A stretch of DNA of 5,345 nt, from the IMG/VR virus record IMGVR_UViG_2639762987_000006. The stretch is one strand, 5' to 3'. This document shows positions 230 to 5,345 of the stretch, piece after piece. Numbering within the stretch: position 1 is the stretch's first letter; each line of letters opens with the position of its first letter. The stretch comes from a virus (Duplodnaviria > Heunggongvirae > Uroviricota > Caudoviricetes). The notes below the pieces were generated by a model. The model ran no database searches. It was not told the origin of the DNA and worked only from the letters and a program-made list of their open reading frames with translations. The position numbers and the translations under genes are program-made.

Positions 230-290
230 NNNNNNNNNNNNNNNNNNNNNNNNNNNNNNNNNNNNNNNNNNNNNNNNNNNNNNNNNNNNN
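230..290. other. Run of 61 ambiguous bases (N): assembly or scaffold gap
   Basis: Direct reading of the sequence; the true length of the gap is unknown. Confidence 0.99.
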
Positions 291-1159: not shown

Positions 1160-1232
1160 GGTCAGACCAGATTGAAACGATAAAAACGATCTTGCAAACT
1201 ACGTGCCCTCATACCATATGGAAGGTTTATCT

Positions 1233-1643
1233 ATGGATCAGGTAGTCATTTTTAAACAAATATTTGATAAAGTTCGAAACGATTTAAACTATCAATGGTT
1301 TTATTCTGAGCTAAAACGTCACAATGTCTCACATTACATTTACTATTTAGCTACAGATAATGTTCATATTGTATTAAAAAATGATAATACAGTGTTATTA
1401 AAGGGCCTAAAAAACATTGTGTCTGTCAAATTTTCAAAGGATAGGCATCTTATAGAAACGACCGCTAATAAGCTGAAATCCAGTGAGATCACATTTCAGG
1501 AATACAGAAGAAACCTTGCTAAAGCAGGAGTTTTTCGGTGGGTTACAAATATCCACGAACAAAAAAGATATTACTATACCTTTGATAATTCATTACTCTT
1601 TACTGAAAACATACAGAGCACATCACAAATATTTCCACACTAA
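1233..1643 (+). CDS. ydfO: DUF1398-family protein (YdfO/YbcV-like prophage protein), 136 aa; function unknown
   Basis: The tracked ORF (1203..1643) was trimmed to the ATG at 1233, which has GGAAGG 7 nt upstream; the product then begins [23 protein letters not shown]… Its sequence and 136-aa length match my recollection of the E. coli K-12 prophage proteins YdfO (Qin) and YbcV (DLP12), which lie beside lysis cassettes. The gene is visibly AT-rich compared with the lysis genes. Identity is from memory and needs a database check. Confidence 0.7.
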
Positions 1644-2725: not shown

Positions 2726-3259
2726 TTATCTGTCGATACCCCAGCACGCCAGCGCGCTCTCCTGGTCACGACGGGATACCTGACCGTAGCAGTTGTTTGA
2801 ACGAATACGGCAGTCTCTGCCACCGTCCTTAATCCACCAGCGAATCGCCTCACACGCTCCCCTGCGATCACCTGCATTAATTCGTTTATAAAACGTCGAC
2901 GGGAAACACTTACTGGGACCAATGTTGTACGGACAGAATGACGCGATCCCCGCTTTCTGGGGTTCGCTCAATGGCACTTTGATGTTTTTCTCCACCCATG
3001 CCAGCGCCTTATCACGCTCAATGGCGTTGACCTGGTCGCATTTTTCCTTCGACAGTTTCATACCGGGAAAAACGGGTTTTCCATCCACCATCGTGGCCCC
3101 CCGACAGATGGTCCAGATGCCGGAACCATCGCGGTATGCCGTTGTGTGGTTACCCTCTTTTTCGTCCAGAAACTGGTCAAGTATCTGAGGAGCAGACGCG
3201 CCTGCAGCAATCAGCGCCAGAACAGCAGCTGACAGGGCGTATTTGATTTTTGCGCTCAT
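2726..3259 (-). CDS. R: Phage endolysin of the T4-lysozyme type (glycoside hydrolase family 24), 177 aa, with an N-terminal SAR or signal segment (RrrQ-like)
   Basis: Tracked ORF. The catalytic triad spacing E-x8-D-x5-T in …DEKEGNHTTAYRDGSGIWT… is that of T4 lysozyme. The N-terminus MSAKIKYALSAAVLALIAAGASAP is a weakly hydrophobic Ala/Gly-rich segment. It pairs with an S21-type pinholin upstream. Length and sequence match my recollection of E. coli prophage lysozyme RrrQ. Confidence 0.9.
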   Translation of the reverse strand: MSAKIKYALSAAVLALIAAGASAPQILDQFLDEKEGNHTTAYRDGSGIWTICRGATMVDGKPVFPGMKLSKEKCDQVNAIERDKALAWVEKNIKVPLSEPQKAGIASFCPYNIGPSKCFPSTFYKRINAGDRRGACEAIRWWIKDGGRDCRIRSNNCYGQVSRRDQESALACWGIDR

Positions 3260-3314
3260 GGATATTTATCAGGATGCTACCAATGAAAGATACCGGAAAG
3301 CCAACTGCAAAAAG

Positions 3315-3629
3315 CTAACAACCCGTAATCGAGTTATCAGAACTGTTAATTTTTATGGTATACCGCGCCTCTGAACAGGGGCGCGTTTCTGGCAACAGCT
3401 CGTCCCCTTCACATAACCCGGCAGCAACATCCAGGAAGACCTGTCTGATGCTCCTTCTGGCTGCTGCCTCATAAAACTCCAGCGCGGCACCTTCAACACG
3501 GTCCAGCGAGATGTCCAGGTCAAAAATTTCACCGTCAAAGCGTTCTTTGTCCCGTAACGCTAAAGTTACCGTAACTTTATTCTCAAAATTGCGGATCCCT
3601 TTCACAATCAGTTCATATTTTTGAGTCAT
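3315..3629 (-). CDS. ydfR: DUF1327-family protein (YdfR-like), 104 aa, lying between holin and endolysin; function unknown
   Basis: Tracked ORF. Its ATG at 3629 is 4 nt after the holin stop, with GGAGAG upstream. It has no signal peptide or transmembrane segment. Position and sequence match my recollection of YdfR in the Qin prophage lysis cluster. Confidence 0.75.
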   Translation of the reverse strand: MTQKYELIVKGIRNFENKVTVTLALRDKERFDGEIFDLDISLDRVEGAALEFYEAAARRSIRQVFLDVAAGLCEGDELLPETRPCSEARYTIKINSSDNSITGC

Positions 3630-3633
3630 TGAA

Positions 3634-3849
3634 TTACTCTCCCCGTGCAGCCTTACGCTTGTCTTCTTTAATCTTGAAATAAAGGTTTGTCAGGTACGTC
3701 AGCAGGCCAAATACCAGGCTACCCAGCACACCTATTGCTGCCCACTGTGAGGGCGTGACTTTATCGAGCAGCTGTAAAAACCAGTAGCCAGCACTGCCTG
3801 CGGAGGTGCCGTAGGCAATGCCTGTTGAAATTTTGTCCATGGATTTCAT
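3634..3849 (-). CDS. S: Class II holin / pinholin of the phage 21 S type, 71 aa, with a dual-start motif
   Basis: The tracked ORF (3634..3906) was trimmed to the ATG at 3849, which has GAGGTGAGG 5–6 nt upstream. The product [71 protein letters not shown] has two transmembrane segments and a basic C-terminus, and closely matches phage 21 S21 / EssD / EssQ as I remember them. The starts at Met1 and Met4 (MKSM) would give the antiholin and holin forms. Confidence 0.88.
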
Positions 3850-3949
3850 AGCCTCACCTCCGCACGGAACGGATGGCATAGTTATTATGTGTAGGCTTCC
3901 AGACACATCAATCGGAGCCTTAATTGATATATATGCTGGAGACGATGCA

Positions 3950-3975
3950 ATATAAAAAGCTCGCCGTAGCGAGCT
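3950..3975 (-). terminator. Rho-independent terminator on the minus strand: stem GCTCGC (3959..3964) / GCGAGC (3969..3974), loop CGTA, followed on the minus strand by TTTTTATATT
   Basis: Seen in the sequence. The perfect 6-bp GC-rich stem with a U-tract is canonical on the minus strand only. It lies between the lipoprotein genes and the holin. Confidence 0.55.
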
Positions 3976-4100
3976 AATAAAATGTATTTCTCTGATATTA
4001 TGTTTATTTGTATTAGCTCAGACTTGACATCACAGGTTTCGTATATAGAACATCATCAAATCTGTCAGTTTGCTATGAATGAGATATAGTAATTGAAGAG

Positions 4101-4496
4101 CTAACCTCGCATGTCAAAGCCAGATTTCTGAAAATCTCTGTAGACTTCCGGATTGTTGAAGGCCGGAAATTTGGCTTTATGAGCTGCGGACTTTATCGCT
4201 TCGCAATAGGCTTTATCACCGTTACTGGTAGATATTTTTAACGCCGTGCCATCCTGAGAGAATTCCATATGCAACCTGCATTTTTTCCCTTTCCAGTTAT
4301 GCGGCTCATCAAGTTTGGCATTAATTGCAGCTCTGATTCCCCGCGCTTGCGCCCCCCATTCATCCTGATCATCCCAGCGTCCTGAACTGCAACTACCTGT
4401 AGCAGTAGTTTTGTGGCAATCTGAAGGGTGTAAAGGTGTGCATCCCGCAACAAAACCGACCCAAAAAGTCAACATAACGATTTTCTTTAATCCCAC
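4101..4496 (-). CDS. Lipoprotein with a divergent TolA C-terminal (domain III)-like domain, 131 aa precursor
   Basis: Tracked ORF with a GTG start at 4496 (GAGGAG 6 nt upstream). The signal peptide MGLKKIVMLTFWVGFVAGC carries lipobox VAGC, and Thr at +2 predicts outer-membrane sorting. The C-terminal half (…KKCRLHMEF…GDKAYCEAIKSAAHKAKFPAFNNPEVYRDFQ…) shares its Cys pair and PEVY…FQ motif with the neighbouring TolA-III-like paralog. Confidence 0.75.
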   Translation of the reverse strand: MGLKKIVMLTFWVGFVAGCTPLHPSDCHKTTATGSCSSGRWDDQDEWGAQARGIRAAINAKLDEPHNWKGKKCRLHMEFSQDGTALKISTSNGDKAYCEAIKSAAHKAKFPAFNNPEVYRDFQKSGFDMRG

Positions 4497-4646
4497 TTCT
4501 TGCTCCTCAATCCATTAAAATCTCAGCAATAGTAGTTGTTACGTCCGCCACTGGCTCAGAGTTGACTATCCGCTAAATTTAGCTCAGTGCCGTAGTTGTG
4601 TCAGAACAAACCTAAGCCGAAACCGTTTATTACAAAACAATAAATA

Positions 4647-5075
4647 TCAGGGTTTAAAATCCAGCACCCCATTTTGAAATACTTTATATACTTCCGGCGA
4701 AGGGGGGGCAGGTATATCAGCATTCTTTATCGCATTCATCGCTTCACGACATAAATCGAGGTCTCCACTTTCTCTTTTAACCTCCAGTAGAAGGCCATTC
4801 GGGGCCATATGCATTCTCAGTGTACACTCTTTTCCTGAATACTTACTCGCATCCCCGAACTGTTTTTCGATGGCGCTCTTGATTTGATGGGCATACAGAC
4901 GGATATCCTCACTAACATCAGAAGTACGTTCAGATGAACTCACATACTGTGTCTCTATTGCTTTATCGGAGTAATATGATGTACGGTCATGATAATTTGT
5001 CGATACAGCATCAGTGCACCCGATAATAATCCCACTAATAATCAACGTAAGAATTGATGCGCTACGAAAACCCAT
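4647..5075 (-). CDS. Lipoprotein carrying a TolA C-terminal domain III homolog, 142 aa precursor
   Basis: Tracked ORF with an ATG at 5075 (GAGGA 5 nt upstream). The signal peptide MGFRSASILTLIISGIIIGC carries lipobox IIGC, followed by a Ser/Thr-rich linker. The C-terminal ~85 aa (…QIKSAIEKQFGDASKYSGKECTLRMHMAPNGLLLEVKRESGDLDLCREAMNAIKNADIPAPPSPEVYKVFQNGVLDFKP) aligns closely with the C-terminus of E. coli TolA as I remember it (…QIKSAIESKFYDASSYAGKTCTLRIKLAPDGMLLDIKPEGGDPALCQAALAAAKLAKIPKPPSQAVYEVFKNAPLDFKP). Confidence 0.8.
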   Translation of the reverse strand: MGFRSASILTLIISGIIIGCTDAVSTNYHDRTSYYSDKAIETQYVSSSERTSDVSEDIRLYAHQIKSAIEKQFGDASKYSGKECTLRMHMAPNGLLLEVKRESGDLDLCREAMNAIKNADIPAPPSPEVYKVFQNGVLDFKP

Positions 5076-5104
5076 TTTTCCTCACATATGTCATATAGTA
5101 AAGG

Positions 5105-5134
5105 ATTATATATACCGTTGTTTTGGACGCTCAA
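5105..5134 (-). promoter_or_regulatory. Candidate sigma70 promoter for the TolA-like lipoprotein genes (minus strand): -35 TTGAGC (5129..5134), 18-nt spacer, -10 TATAAT (5105..5110)
   Basis: Read from the minus strand: a perfect -10 hexamer about 30 nt upstream of the ATG at 5075, with a 4/6 match at -35. Confidence 0.3.
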
Positions 5135-5345
5135 ACAGCGAATCAGATCAAATAAAACGCACATTTGTTAACATTTACACAAAGTCTGCGTGGGATATTC
5201 TGAAAGAATATCCATAATGTGGAGAGAATCTATTGAAGTGCATGGTGCCGGGTGCCTCCCGGTGAATTCAGTACCAGCACCTGAATCCGCGATTATCCCA
5301 TATACCTACTCGCTGATTGCCCCTCCGCACAGGGGGATTCACCAT

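What the first reader, a model, noticed from the sequence alone, without database searches (positions are those of the whole stretch)
4101..4496. Second, divergent TolA-III-like lipoprotein with an extra Cys-rich segment
This paralog keeps the TolA-III-like core (Cys pair and the PEVY…FQ C-terminal motif) but is much more divergent than its neighbour. Between the lipobox Cys and the core it adds a Cys/Gly/Ser-rich stretch (…PSDCHKTTATGSCSSGRWDDQDEW…) and ends …FQKSGFDMRG instead of …LDFKP. Divergence after duplication suggests a different binding specificity, for example a different colicin or phage ligand, or a different Tol/Ton partner. That pattern is typical of decoys under arms-race selection.
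Basis: partly seen in the sequence, partly recalled or inferred. Interest (0 to 1): 0.65.

Follow-up and report, generated by a model that had tools for sequence, protein, structure and literature searches.

The report
Mobile outer-membrane TolA-domain lipoprotein
This prophage gene encodes a small lipoprotein that copies the tip of the bacterial TolA protein, the part colicins and filamentous phages grab to enter cells. It belongs to a highly conserved, uncharacterised family that moves between phages, conjugative plasmids and chromosomes and most likely acts as a protective decoy.

Summary
Window 4101-4496 (minus strand) is a real 131-aa gene. It has a GTG start with a strong Shine-Dalgarno sequence, a lipoprotein signal (VAG|C), a 30-residue Cys/Gly/Ser-rich extension, and a TolA domain III core. 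The core scores Pfam PF06519 E=1.3e-14. The AlphaFold model superposes on E. coli TolA-III at 1.1 Å.

The evolutionary reading is not supported.
- The neighbour (A, 4647-5075) is 60% identical to host TolA-III but only about 29% identical to this gene (B). B is therefore not a recent diverged duplicate of A.
- B belongs to a broad family of 370 clusters in many Enterobacterales genera. The family is under strong purifying selection (dN/dS 0.11-0.15).
- The "extra" segment is the most conserved part of the protein, although it is predicted disordered.

B occurs in four contexts:
- with A as a promoter-to-terminator cassette (a moron) just upstream of the holin in E. coli lambdoid prophages;
- alone after the relaxase gene nikB on I-complex plasmids and pO157;
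- alone in chromosomes of other genera;
- paired with a secreted TonB C-terminal-domain protein in Klebsiella.

Best explanation (inferred, about 0.45): an outer-membrane-tethered TolA-III mimic that intercepts Tol-dependent bacteriocins and/or filamentous-phage g3p. No published function was found. It is a new variant of a known kind.

The parts
4101..4496 (-). Gene B: 131-aa prolipoprotein with a TolA domain III core (the finding). Stop codon at 4101-4103.
   Evidence: ORF. Pfam PF06519 E=1.3e-14. PDB sequence hits to TolA-III. 370 homologous clusters. dN/dS 0.11-0.15.
4443..4496 (-). Signal peptide, residues 1-18 (MGLKKIVMLTFWVGFVAG). The lipobox V-A-G-C ends at Cys19 (4440-4442). Residue +2 is Thr, so outer-membrane sorting is predicted by the Lol rule.
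   Evidence: Read directly from the sequence. Lipobox present in 116/120 family members, none with Asp at +2. This is the fastest-evolving region, dN/dS 0.33.
4353..4442 (-). Conserved N-terminal extension, residues 19-48: C-TPLHPSD-C-HKTTATGS-C-SSGRWDDQDEWG. It has an invariant Cys27/Cys36 pair and an aromatic-acidic motif GR[WF]xDxDE[WY]G.
   Evidence: C9/C18 of the mature protein are invariant in 51 sequences. The segment is 73-83% identical even in homologues whose core is only 43-45% identical, and dN/dS is 0.11. pLDDT is below 50 in two AlphaFold runs.
4104..4352 (-). TolA domain III core, residues 49-131. Predicted elements in order: helix, short helix, two strands, two helices, C-terminal strand. 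Cys73/Cys98 align with the TolA domain III Cys pair. The C-terminal strand reads F-D-M-R.
   Evidence: AlphaFold pLDDT above 90. Foldseek rmsd 1.1 Å to 2X9A_B, 3QDP and 3QDR_A. Gapless alignment to TolA 341-419.
4497..4531 (-). Conserved 5' leader of B, including the Shine-Dalgarno GAGGAG (4503-4508). It is the only flanking DNA shared with the plasmid and chromosomal copies.
   Evidence: blastn homology to plasmid and chromosomal copies spans window 4098-4531 only. Multi-genus upstream alignment.
4647..5075 (-). Gene A: 142-aa lipoprotein (lipobox IIGC, +2 Thr) with a host-like TolA-III domain ending LDFKP. It is B's cassette partner in phages.
   Evidence: Pfam PF06519 E=2.4e-23. 60% identical to E. 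coli TolA-III. A>B>holin order in 78/80 viral contigs.
5105..5134 (-). Sigma-70-like promoter TTGAGC-18-TATAAT upstream of A. It is the candidate autonomous promoter of the A-B cassette.
   Evidence: 10/12 consensus match and the best site in the region. This is a prediction only; the number of sites in the region is not above the shuffled expectation.
3948..3975 (-). Intrinsic-terminator-like hairpin (AGCTCGC-TACG-GCGAGCT) followed by a U-run. It lies between B and the holin gene.
   Evidence: Terminator scan. RNA fold gives -13 kcal/mol, z=-2.9 against shuffles.
3634..3849 (-). Context: P21-type holin (essD-like). It sits at a fixed 255 nt downstream of B in phage copies.
   Evidence: Pfam PF04971 E=1.8e-35. 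Annotated as essD in NZ_CP015834. Spacing measured.

Best explanation
Gene B encodes a small exported lipoprotein. These points rest on sequence and model evidence:
- a signal peptidase II-type signal peptide;
- lipid-modified Cys19;
- no Asp at +2, so the inner leaflet of the outer membrane is the predicted location;
- a folded domain that is a structural copy of TolA domain III.

TolA domain III is the periplasmic hub onto which TolB's N-terminus, colicins N and A, and filamentous-phage g3p-N1 dock by beta-strand augmentation.

The mechanism is inferred. B is tethered under the outer membrane, where colicin translocation domains and g3p first emerge. There it acts as a competitive TolA-III mimic. 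It captures these ligands before they reach the energised, inner-membrane-anchored TolA, and so makes the carrier cell tolerant to Tol-dependent bacteriocins and/or filamentous phages.

Invader-TolA affinities (about 1 uM) are far tighter than the native TolA-TolB contact (about 40 uM). A decoy could therefore work without crippling Tol-Pal.

The invariant, probably disordered and disulfide-looped N-terminal extension is inferred to be a linear binding motif for a conserved partner. That partner is unidentified.

In E. coli lambdoid phages B travels with A, a host-like TolA-III lipoprotein. The two form a moron with its own predicted promoter and terminator just upstream of the holin. The same gene travels alone on I-complex conjugative plasmids and in chromosomes of other genera. 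In Klebsiella it is paired with a secreted TonB C-terminal domain.
For: Identity (strong):
- Pfam TolA_C E=1.3e-14.
- Gapless alignment to TolA 341-419.
- AlphaFold core pLDDT above 90.
- Foldseek top hits are all E. coli TolA-III, several in complex with g3p or colicin A, at rmsd 1.1 Å.
- Lipobox statistics.

Binding edge retained. The beta3 residues L417-D418-F419-K420 bind TolB, ColN and g3p, mainly through backbone hydrogen bonds (PMC4339652). In B they are F-D-M-R, and the C-terminal 16 residues are among the best-conserved columns. The beta2 edge used by colicin A (L375, L376, I378; PMC3365938) is A-L-K-I in B.

Affinity argument. ColN-TolA is about 1 uM; TolA-TolB is about 40 uM (PMC4339652 abstract).

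Context, typical of an accessory protective gene:
- Promoter- and terminator-bounded cassette between Q and the holin.
- Present in 1269/5426 complete E. coli genomes, with 536 plasmid copies.
- Sits immediately after nikB on conjugative MOBP/MPF_I plasmids. These plasmids encode I-type mating-pair systems, and from general knowledge their pili are receptors for the TolA-dependent phage If1.
- A third, independent lipoprotein-TolA-III lineage sits on conjugative IncF plasmids of Klebsiella.
- In the K. oxytoca complex the B-like gene is preceded by a secreted TonB_C protein. That gives stand-alone copies of the ligand-binding domains of both import machines that bacteriocins and phages parasitise.
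- There is no conserved partner gene across genera, so the function is self-contained.

Precedent, from memory and not held in the library: Levengood-Freyermuth, Click & Webster 1993 (cited in PMC8928145) reported that exporting the TolA C-terminal domain to the periplasm causes colicin tolerance and leakiness.
Against: - There is no experimental or literature evidence for this family. Ten literature searches found nothing. PHROG 5772 is 'unknown function' and PADLOC has no hit.
- B is only 32-34% identical to TolA-III. A is a much better mimic of TolA.
- B's extreme conservation across genera, and especially that of the N-terminal extension, fits binding to a conserved host partner better than binding to diverse, fast-evolving invader domains.
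- Many copies sit in ordinary chromosomal neighbourhoods.
- Binding was not modelled. The tools allowed neither complexes nor TolB, g3p or colicin sequences.
- The promoter is a consensus match only.
- In the phage the cassette would also be transcribed late, with the lysis genes.
Confidence: 0.45

Rival explanations
1. Modulator of the host Tol-Pal system rather than a decoy for invaders. B uses its TolA-III edge to hold TolB's N-terminus, and its invariant N-terminal motif to bind another conserved envelope component. This would tune Pal mobilisation, outer-membrane stability or vesiculation. In the phage it could also help destabilise the outer membrane at lysis.
For: - Very strong purifying selection across genera, strongest in the N-terminal extension, suggests a conserved endogenous partner.
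- Stable chromosomal copies sit in non-mobile contexts in Enterobacter, Leclercia, Citrobacter and Klebsiella.
- The beta3 strand that binds TolB is conserved.
- The review PMC7391070 notes that modulating TolB interactions could regulate vesicle production.
- The phage copy lies 255 nt upstream of the holin and would be read through late.
Against: - The patchy, MGE-borne distribution (prophage moron, plasmid accessory gene) is unusual for a housekeeping regulator.
- Pairing with a TonB C-terminal domain in Klebsiella is hard to explain by Tol-Pal tuning alone.
- The native TolA-TolB affinity is weak (about 40 uM).
- A lysis-specific role is contradicted by the plasmid and chromosomal copies, which lack lysis genes.
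Confidence: 0.25
2. B is a tandem duplicate of A that diverged rapidly under arms-race selection to recognise a different colicin or phage ligand.
For: - A and B are adjacent, on the same strand, both are lipoproteins with TolA-III cores, and both share the PEVY..FQ motif.
- They are co-inherited in 78/80 viral contigs and 772 E. coli genomes.
- Distinct specificities for the two remain plausible.
Against: - A is closer to host TolA (59-60%) than to B (29-30%), and B's nearest relatives are its own broad family.
- B occurs without A on plasmids and in at least 10 other genera. A occurs without B as well.
- dN/dS is 0.11-0.15, and E. coli has only two discrete alleles of B.
- Motifs of the (D/P)E(V/I)Y type are common in other small TolA-III lipoproteins.
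Confidence: 0.07
3. An element-specific accessory function, such as a conjugation factor on the plasmids (mating-pair stabilisation or entry exclusion) or a superinfection-exclusion factor against tailed phages in lysogens. This would be unrelated to Tol ligands.
For: - The position is constant, 67 bp after the relaxase gene nikB on MPF_I plasmids.
- In phages it occupies the moron position, as do other prophage outer-membrane lipoproteins. That Cor and Bor are examples is general knowledge.
Against: The same, highly conserved protein is found in three unrelated kinds of replicon and in plain chromosomal loci with no transfer or phage genes. The function is therefore not tied to one element's life cycle. 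Nothing in the sequence points away from TolA-III ligands.
Confidence: 0.1

Closest known systems
E. coli TolA domain III (PDB 1TOL, 1S62, 3QDP/3QDR, 2X9A)
   Same: Same Pfam family and same predicted fold: rmsd 1.1 Å over 84-86 residues. B has the same Cys pair and a C-terminal beta3 strand with conservative substitutions.
   Different: - 32-34% identity only.
- No TolA domain I (membrane anchor coupling to TolQR) and no helical domain II.
- Lipid-anchored to the opposite, outer membrane, so it cannot be energised.
- Carries a unique conserved N-terminal extension.
- Not in the tol-pal operon.
- Scores below the NCBIfam TolA cutoffs.
Neighbouring gene A (window 4647-5075), the host-like TolA-III lipoprotein
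   Same: Both are small lipoproteins with a TolA-III core. Both fall in the same PHROG (5772, unknown function). They are co-inherited as one cassette upstream of the holin.
   Different: - A is 60% identical to TolA-III and ends LDFKP.
- A has a variable Ser/Tyr-rich linker with no Cys motif.
- A is confined to E. coli and Shigella prophages (46 clusters) and almost never occurs on plasmids.
Artificially exported TolA-III and TonB C-terminal fragments (dominant-negative experiments; recalled from Levengood-Freyermuth et al. 1993 and Howard et al. 2001, neither readable here)
   Same: A free periplasmic copy of the ligand-binding domain competes with the full-length transducer. It gives tolerance to colicins and phages that use that transducer. 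This is the mechanism proposed for B.
   Different: Those are laboratory constructs: overproduced, soluble, and damaging to the envelope. B is a natural, lipid-anchored, diverged version with an extra motif, and its effect is untested.
Prophage-encoded outer-membrane lipoproteins that block entry (Cor of phi80/HK022/N15; Llp of T5). General knowledge, not tested here.
   Same: Small lipoproteins encoded by phage accessory genes that protect the carrier cell by interfering with an entry component.
   Different: Cor and Llp act on the receptor FhuA and are unrelated in sequence and fold. B mimics a periplasmic co-receptor rather than masking a surface receptor.
Colicin TolB box (ColE9 32-GASDGSGWSSENNPW-46; ColA 9-KGDGTGWSSERG-20; PMC2821528)
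   Same: B's extension, like the TolB box, is a predicted-disordered Gly/Ser-rich segment. It has two aromatic residues 6 apart (W39 and W46 are 7 apart in ColE9) and acidic residues.
   Different: The defining core DG(S/T)GWSSE is not present. B has SSGRWDDQ, which lacks the essential Asp35 and Ser37 equivalents. The resemblance is compositional only.
Klebsiella secreted TonB_C protein (125 aa) found here next to B-like genes
   Same: A stand-alone exported copy of the ligand-binding domain of an envelope energy transducer, apparently in one operon with a B-family member.
   Different: It has a signal peptidase I-type signal and so is soluble and periplasmic, not a lipoprotein. It has a TonB fold rather than a TolA fold. 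Its distribution is narrow, 14 clusters.

Membership tests
TolA C-terminal domain (Pfam PF06519, TolA-III fold) | Profile match above the curated threshold | tested here: met
   54.6 bits against a gathering score of 25, E=1.3e-14, covering profile positions 10-92 of 96.
TolA C-terminal domain (Pfam PF06519, TolA-III fold) | Alpha/beta fold of TolA-III with a three-stranded sheet and a C-terminal beta3 strand | tested here: met
   AlphaFold core pLDDT above 90, with elements H-H-E-E-H-H-E. Foldseek against 2X9A_B, 3QDP and 3QDR_A gives rmsd 1.1 Å and TMt 0.85-0.92. Most TonB C-terminal domains give TMq of about 0.34-0.43 (HasB 0.51). This is a predicted model, not an experimental structure.
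TolA C-terminal domain (Pfam PF06519, TolA-III fold) | Conserved Cys pair (C363/C388 in my numbering of E. coli TolA) | tested here: met
   C73 and C98 align with the two TolA domain III Cys residues. They are invariant in 44- and 51-sequence alignments.
TolA C-terminal domain (Pfam PF06519, TolA-III fold) | Binds TolB N-terminus, g3p-N1 or colicin N by beta-strand augmentation on beta3 (L417-K420) | not testable with these tools
   Sequence only. B has F-D-M-R where TolA has L-D-F-K, it has no proline, and these columns are highly conserved. No complex modelling was possible.
Full-length TolA (NCBIfam TIGR02794 / NF007065, 'cell envelope integrity protein TolA') | Equivalog score above the curated cutoff | tested here: not met
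   47.2 bits against 59.45, and 53.7 bits against 213. Only the last ~80 profile positions match.
Full-length TolA (NCBIfam TIGR02794 / NF007065, 'cell envelope integrity protein TolA') | N-terminal inner-membrane anchor (domain I) and long helical domain II; gene located in the tol-pal cluster | tested here: not met
   B is 131 aa with a lipoprotein signal and a 30-residue extension. It lies between phage Q and the holin, after nikB, or in unrelated chromosomal loci.
Bacterial lipoprotein (signal peptidase II substrate) | Positively charged n-region, hydrophobic h-region, lipobox [LVI][ASTVI][GAS]C | tested here: met
   MGLKK-IVMLTFWVGF-VAG|C. 116/120 homologues have a lipobox (VAGC 53, AAGC 43). 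Lipidation itself is not testable here.
Bacterial lipoprotein (signal peptidase II substrate) | Outer-membrane sorting (no Asp at +2, Lol rule in Enterobacteriaceae) | tested here: met
   Position +2 is Thr in the window copy. Across the family it is A, S, T, C, G or V, and never D. Localisation itself is not testable here.
Colicin TolB box | Core DG(S/T)GWSSE; for the E9 type, a distal Trp 7 residues after the first | tested here: not met
   B has S-S-G-R-W-D-D-Q-D-E-W. The essential Asp and Ser positions are absent and the Trp-Trp spacing is 6, not 7. The consensus is taken from PMC2821528.
TonB C-terminal domain (PF03544 / PF13103) | Profile match or a closer structural match than to TolA | tested here: not met
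   B has no TonB_C or TonB_2 hit. TonB C-terminal domains rank below all TolA-III structures, with TM of about 0.34-0.43 for most (HasB 0.51).
Phage moron (autonomous accessory cassette in the late region) | Own promoter and terminator, inserted between conserved phage genes, not needed for the lytic cycle | tested here: inconclusive
   There is a promoter-like site with a 10/12 match at 5134-5105 and a terminator hairpin at 3975-3958 (-13 kcal/mol, z -2.9). The cassette is absent from most lambdoid phages, being present in 1 of 50,697 phage records. GC content is slightly lower than in the lysis genes. Transcription was not measured.
Known anti-phage defence systems (PADLOC-DB) | Match to a catalogued defence protein model | tested here: not met
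   No PADLOC hit at E<=0.1 for A or B.

The most novel reading that the evidence does not exclude
B-family proteins are the core of an unrecognised class of mobile 'energy-transducer decoys'. They are stand-alone, exported copies of the ligand-binding domains of TolA, and in Klebsiella also of TonB. Phages, conjugative plasmids and chromosomes exchange them to give broad, receptor-independent tolerance to bacteriocins and to pilus-dependent filamentous phages. The invariant disordered N-terminal motif (C-x7-C-x8-C ... GR[WF]xDxDE[WY]G) would be a new linear peptide motif. It would dock the decoy onto a conserved envelope component, for example the TolB beta-propeller or the periplasmic face of a porin, at the spot where invaders emerge.
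Probability: 0.3. Interest if true: 0.8.

Novelty: new variant of a known kind. Interest (0 to 1): 0.58.

Why it matters
TolA domain III is the shared entry point for group A colicins and for filamentous phages (Ff, If1, CTXphi). If mobile elements carry natural decoys of it, that would be a receptor-independent immunity mechanism acting in the periplasm. It would differ from cognate colicin immunity proteins, surface-receptor masking and intracellular defence systems.

It could help explain several things:
- variable colicin and klebicin sensitivity among clinical Enterobacteriaceae;
- how plasmids that build phage-receptor pili limit the cost of those pili;
- why pO157 and about 14-23% of complete E. 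coli genomes retain these genes.

The extremely conserved but apparently disordered N-terminal motif is a concrete handle for finding a new envelope interaction. Everything proposed can be tested with standard colicin and phage spot assays on a single cloned gene.

If the hypothesis is wrong, the family still marks an uncharacterised and very widespread outer-membrane lipoprotein that is currently mis-started in RefSeq and sometimes mis-named 'TolA'.

Tried and rejected
1. Literature. Ten full-text searches looked for prophage or plasmid TolA-like lipoproteins, decoys, colicin tolerance, protein accession numbers and PHROG 5772. None described this family. One search was wasted on author-name matches.

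2. EHEC transcriptome lead (PMC11125564). The paper links a ciprofloxacin-induced CP-933O gene to 'TolA'. Its supplement lists EDL933_2012 only as 'Tail fiber protein'. It could not be tied to A or B, so I dropped it.

3. TolB-box mimicry by the N-terminal extension. I compared the extension with the published consensus DG(S/T)GWSSE. The core is not matched, so I keep it only as a low-probability lead.

4. A second AlphaFold run with a B-family-only alignment, to see whether the extension packs on the core. It was again below pLDDT 50. This is uninformative about docking.

5. Modelling complexes with the TolB peptide, g3p or colicin.

6. Structural search of viral proteins (BFVD). No TolA-III-like hit. 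afdb50 was unavailable.

7. Search for a conserved neighbour gene across 31 loci. None was found apart from the Klebsiella TonB_C partner and genus-level synteny.

8. PADLOC and NCBIfam. There is no specific family.

9. Lysis-accessory and conjugation-accessory roles. I considered both and ranked them low because the same protein occurs where neither process is encoded.

10. Papers by Levengood-Freyermuth 1993 and Click & Webster 1997. Neither is held in the library, so the dominant-negative precedent rests on my memory.
Full report
**1. What is in the window**

The window is the late region of an E. coli lambdoid prophage, read on the minus strand. The gene order is:
- a TolA-III lipoprotein I call A (5075-4647);
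- the finding, B (4496-4101);
- a P21-type holin (3849/3906-3634);
- a DUF1327/YdfR protein (3629-3315);
- an endolysin (3259-2726);
- Rz (2427-1963) with an embedded Rz1.

The antiterminator Q lies just outside the window in the identical locus of E. coli MS6198. An identical 1446-bp A-B stretch occurs in 772 of 5426 complete E. coli genomes. It also occurs in one of 50,697 deposited phage genomes, mEp460_ev081.

**2.

The GTG start has a GAGGAG Shine-Dalgarno sequence 6 nt upstream. The plasmid allele has ATG at the same codon. Homologues from other genera begin at the equivalent position with a Lys-rich n-region. RefSeq's 124-aa call from the internal ATG removes that n-region and is probably wrong.

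*Lipoprotein signal.* The signal ends in the lipobox VAG|C. 116 of 120 family members have a lipobox, and position +2 is never Asp. By the Lol sorting rule of Enterobacteriaceae this predicts outer-membrane localisation; the rule is established knowledge and localisation itself was not tested.

*TolA-III core.* Residues 49-131 match Pfam TolA_C at 54.6 bits against a cutoff of 25. They align without gaps to E. coli TolA 341-419 in four solved structures. Two AlphaFold runs gave a core pLDDT above 90. Foldseek placed the model on E. coli TolA-III at rmsd 1.1 Å, well ahead of any TonB C-terminal domain. A caveat applies: the model is a prediction, and TolA-III was in AlphaFold's training data. 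The sequence evidence alone is sufficient, however.

**3. The 'extra Cys-rich segment' is the most interesting part**

Mature residues 1-30 read C-TPLHPSD-C-HKTTATGS-C-SSGRWDDQDEWG.
- The two extra Cys are invariant in 51 aligned sequences.
- In the most distant homologues the core is only 43-45% identical to the window copy, yet this segment is 73-83% identical.
- Pairwise Nei-Gojobori dN/dS is 0.33 for the signal peptide, 0.11 for the extension and 0.15 for the core.
- AlphaFold gives the extension a pLDDT below 50 in both runs, including one with a family-only alignment.

A segment that is invariant yet predicted disordered behaves like a short linear binding motif. It is probably constrained by a Cys27-Cys36 disulfide loop in the oxidising periplasm; this is inference.

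I compared the segment with the colicin TolB box, for which the published consensus is DG(S/T)GWSSE (PMC2821528). It shares only composition and two aromatic residues. The defining core is absent, so membership fails.

**4. B is not a diverged duplicate of A**

| Pair | Identity |
|---|---|
| A vs E. coli TolA-III | 59-60% |
| B vs E. coli TolA-III | 32-34% |
| A vs B | 29-30% |

- A's nearest relatives among 1.8 billion representatives are genuine TolAs. B's nearest relatives are its own family.
- The A family has 46 clusters, all in E. coli or Shigella.
- The B family has 370 clusters. It was found in 33 species-representative genomes from Klebsiella, Enterobacter, Citrobacter, Leclercia, Pantoea, Buttiauxella, Raoultella, Rouxiella, Kluyvera and Yokenella.
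- Within E. coli, B exists as two discrete alleles: at least 99% identity in 784 records, and about 88% in 515 records that are mostly plasmids.

None of this looks like arms-race diversification. Site-specific positive selection was not tested.

**5. Where B lives**

*(i) Lambdoid prophages.* In 78 of 80 IMG/VR contigs the order is A>B>holin, with fixed spacings of 154 and 255 nt. The endolysin type downstream varies.
- The cassette has a 10/12 sigma-70-like promoter 30 nt upstream of A.
- It has a stable terminator hairpin after B (-13 kcal/mol, z -2.9).
- This is the classical moron layout.
- It sits downstream of an STnc100-like RNA element.

*(ii) Plasmids.* There are 536 copies in complete E. 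coli genomes and about 600 in PLSDB.
- B lies 67 bp after the relaxase gene nikB on conjugative MOBP/MPF_I plasmids of types IncK2/Z and IncI1/B/O.
- It also lies next to a nikB remnant on pO157.
- A is almost never plasmid-borne, with 3 places.

*(iii) Ordinary chromosomal loci.*
- Enterobacter: between a glutathione-peroxidase gene and a RidA-family gene.
- Citrobacter.
- Leclercia: after hycH-hycI.

*(iv) Klebsiella oxytoca complex, plus one Klebsiella plasmid and one Raoultella MAG.* A B-like gene lies 55-60 nt downstream of a 125-aa secreted protein with a TonB_C domain (E down to 9e-16). In the K. oxytoca chromosome and the Klebsiella sp. plasmid examined, the pair is inserted between der and xseA.

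*What moves.* Homology between all these copies covers only the ORF plus about 35 nt of leader. No other neighbour is conserved. B is therefore a self-contained single-gene module.

*A wider class.*
- A third, independent lipoprotein-TolA-III lineage sits on conjugative IncF plasmids of Klebsiella.
- 48 of 72 short TolA-III representatives in the global library have lipoboxes.
- Small exported TolA-III proteins are therefore a wider, unstudied class.

**6. Mechanism**

*What is known about TolA-III.*
- It is a promiscuous beta-strand-augmentation hub.
- TolB's N-terminus, colicin N and g3p-N1 add onto strand beta3 (L417-K420), mainly through backbone hydrogen bonds.
- Prolines at D418 or K420 abolish all three interactions (PMC4339652).
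- Colicin A adds onto the opposite edge, at L375, L376 and I378 (PMC3365938; PMC7391070).

*What B retains.* B keeps a proline-free, conservatively substituted beta3 (F-D-M-R), a hydrophobic beta2 edge (A-L-K-I) and the surrounding helices. These columns are highly conserved.

*Proposed mechanism (inferred).* B is anchored under the outer membrane by a tether of about 28 residues. That puts it where colicin translocation domains and g3p first appear in the periplasm. I propose it acts as a competitive decoy. ColN-TolA binding (about 1 uM) is roughly 40-fold tighter than TolA-TolB binding (about 40 uM). A decoy could therefore trap invaders without abolishing Tol-Pal function.

*Supporting context.*
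- The gene is carried as an accessory gene by phages and by plasmids.
- Those plasmids build I-type or F-type mating systems, whose pili are the primary receptors of TolA-dependent filamentous phages. This is general knowledge, consistent with the If1 g3p-TolA structure 2X9A.
- B is paired with a more TolA-like decoy (A) in E. coli and with a TonB C-terminal domain in Klebsiella.

*Precedent.* As I recall Levengood-Freyermuth et al. 1993, exporting TolA-III artificially causes colicin tolerance. That paper is not held in the library.

*Status of the steps.* The gene, the lipoprotein signal, the fold, the conservation and the distribution are shown by sequence analysis and prediction; lipidation and the fold have not been confirmed experimentally. 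The localisation, the ligand capture, the protective phenotype and the role of the extension are inferred.

**7. Main rival**

B's extreme conservation, and that of its extension, would fit a conserved host partner such as TolB better than it fits fast-evolving invader domains. Many copies are stably chromosomal. B may therefore modulate Tol-Pal itself, affecting outer-membrane stability, vesiculation or lysis. I give this 0.25 against 0.45 for the decoy. The two are not mutually exclusive, because sequestering TolB's N-terminus would also block TolB-dependent colicins.

**8. Novelty and verdict**

The domain is well known and the gene is routinely annotated by homology as 'cell envelope integrity TolA C-terminal domain-containing protein'. 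No function is recorded: PHROG 5772 is 'unknown function', PADLOC has no hit, and ten literature searches found nothing (and the searches listed under dead ends). The architecture is a lipid anchor, an invariant disordered Cys-loop motif and a TolA-III domain. Together with its three-way mobility and its pairing with A or with TonB_C, this makes it a new variant of a known kind.

Interest is moderate to high. The hypothesis is specific, cheap to test, and bears on colicin and phage susceptibility and on the biology of pO157 and I-complex plasmids.

Noticed in passing
L035:7574-7951, L037:7565-7942, L036:1094-1468, L038:7565-7939; L049:7001-7831; L050:9001-9826: In the Klebsiella oxytoca complex, one Klebsiella plasmid and a Raoultella MAG, the B-like lipoprotein gene is preceded by a 125-aa secreted protein (signal peptidase I-type signal) with a TonB_C domain. 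In the K. oxytoca chromosome and the Klebsiella sp. plasmid examined, this two-gene 'TonB-CTD + TolA-III' island lies between der and xseA. The TonB_C family is narrow, with 14 clusters.
   Followed up: partly
L006:4812-5246 (K. pneumoniae IncFIB/IncFII conjugative plasmid pMR0617ctx): This is a third, independent lineage of lipoprotein (LITAC) with a TolA-III domain, 35% identical to B. It is present on about 310 plasmids, mostly from Klebsiella, and lies next to a thioredoxin-fold gene. RefSeq names it 'TolA'.
   Followed up: partly
window 5186-5345 (-): Rfam STnc100 sRNA match (RF02076): 91 bits against a gathering score of 47, cut off at the window edge. It lies just upstream of the promoter-like site of gene A, between Q and the A-B cassette.
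   Followed up: no
window 4079-4092 and 5088-5101: A 14-nt imperfect direct repeat (ATGAGATATAGTAA / ATGTCATATAGTAA) brackets the A-B coding cassette almost exactly: 13 nt upstream of A's ATG and 9 nt downstream of B's stop. It could be an insertion footprint or chance.
   Followed up: no
L047:4001-4429 (E. coli 07-4299 chromosome): A variant of gene A (about 66% aa identity, lipobox TTGC) occurs without B. It sits directly downstream of tRNA-Ile and tRNA-Arg genes and a DNA methyltransferase after Q, which is the slot occupied by stx in Shiga-toxin phages.
   Followed up: no
window 4101-4475 vs 4101-4496; L003/L005 plasmid copies: RefSeq start sites for this family are inconsistent. The prophage copy is called from an internal ATG (124 aa, losing the charged n-region). 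The plasmid copy is called from an upstream ATG (143 aa). Other genera are called at 135-149 aa. The conserved Shine-Dalgarno sequence and lipoprotein logic favour the 131-aa (135-aa equivalent) start.
   Followed up: yes
window 2726-3906 (-): The lysis cassette pairs a P21-type holin with a lysozyme whose N-terminus (YALSAAVLALIAAGASA) looks to me like a SAR-type signal-anchor. A DUF1327/YdfR gene is inserted between them. A 57-aa ORF (2429-2602, PHROG 6632, one hydrophobic segment) lies between the endolysin and Rz. Across viral contigs the endolysin type downstream of A-B-holin switches between about 30% and 90-100% identity to this one.
   Followed up: partly
window 230-289: A run of 60 N (masked or unsequenced stretch) lies inside the region beyond the small ORF at 739-945.
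   Followed up: no
window 1203-1643 (+): A DUF1398 gene lies on the opposite strand, in an AT-rich island (GC about 0.32) between the lysis genes and the packaging genes. PHROG 413 labels it 'head protein', which seems doubtful for this position and strand.
   Followed up: no
L010-L034 upstream of the B homologues (alignment): Chromosomal B copies from several genera share a conserved upstream block of about 90 nt (…GGTAGTTGAAAAGAGG…GGAAGAATAT…ATTGCTGAGGTTTAAATGGATTGAGG…). It looks like a promoter plus leader. Only the last ~35 nt are retained in the prophage and plasmid copies.
   Followed up: partly
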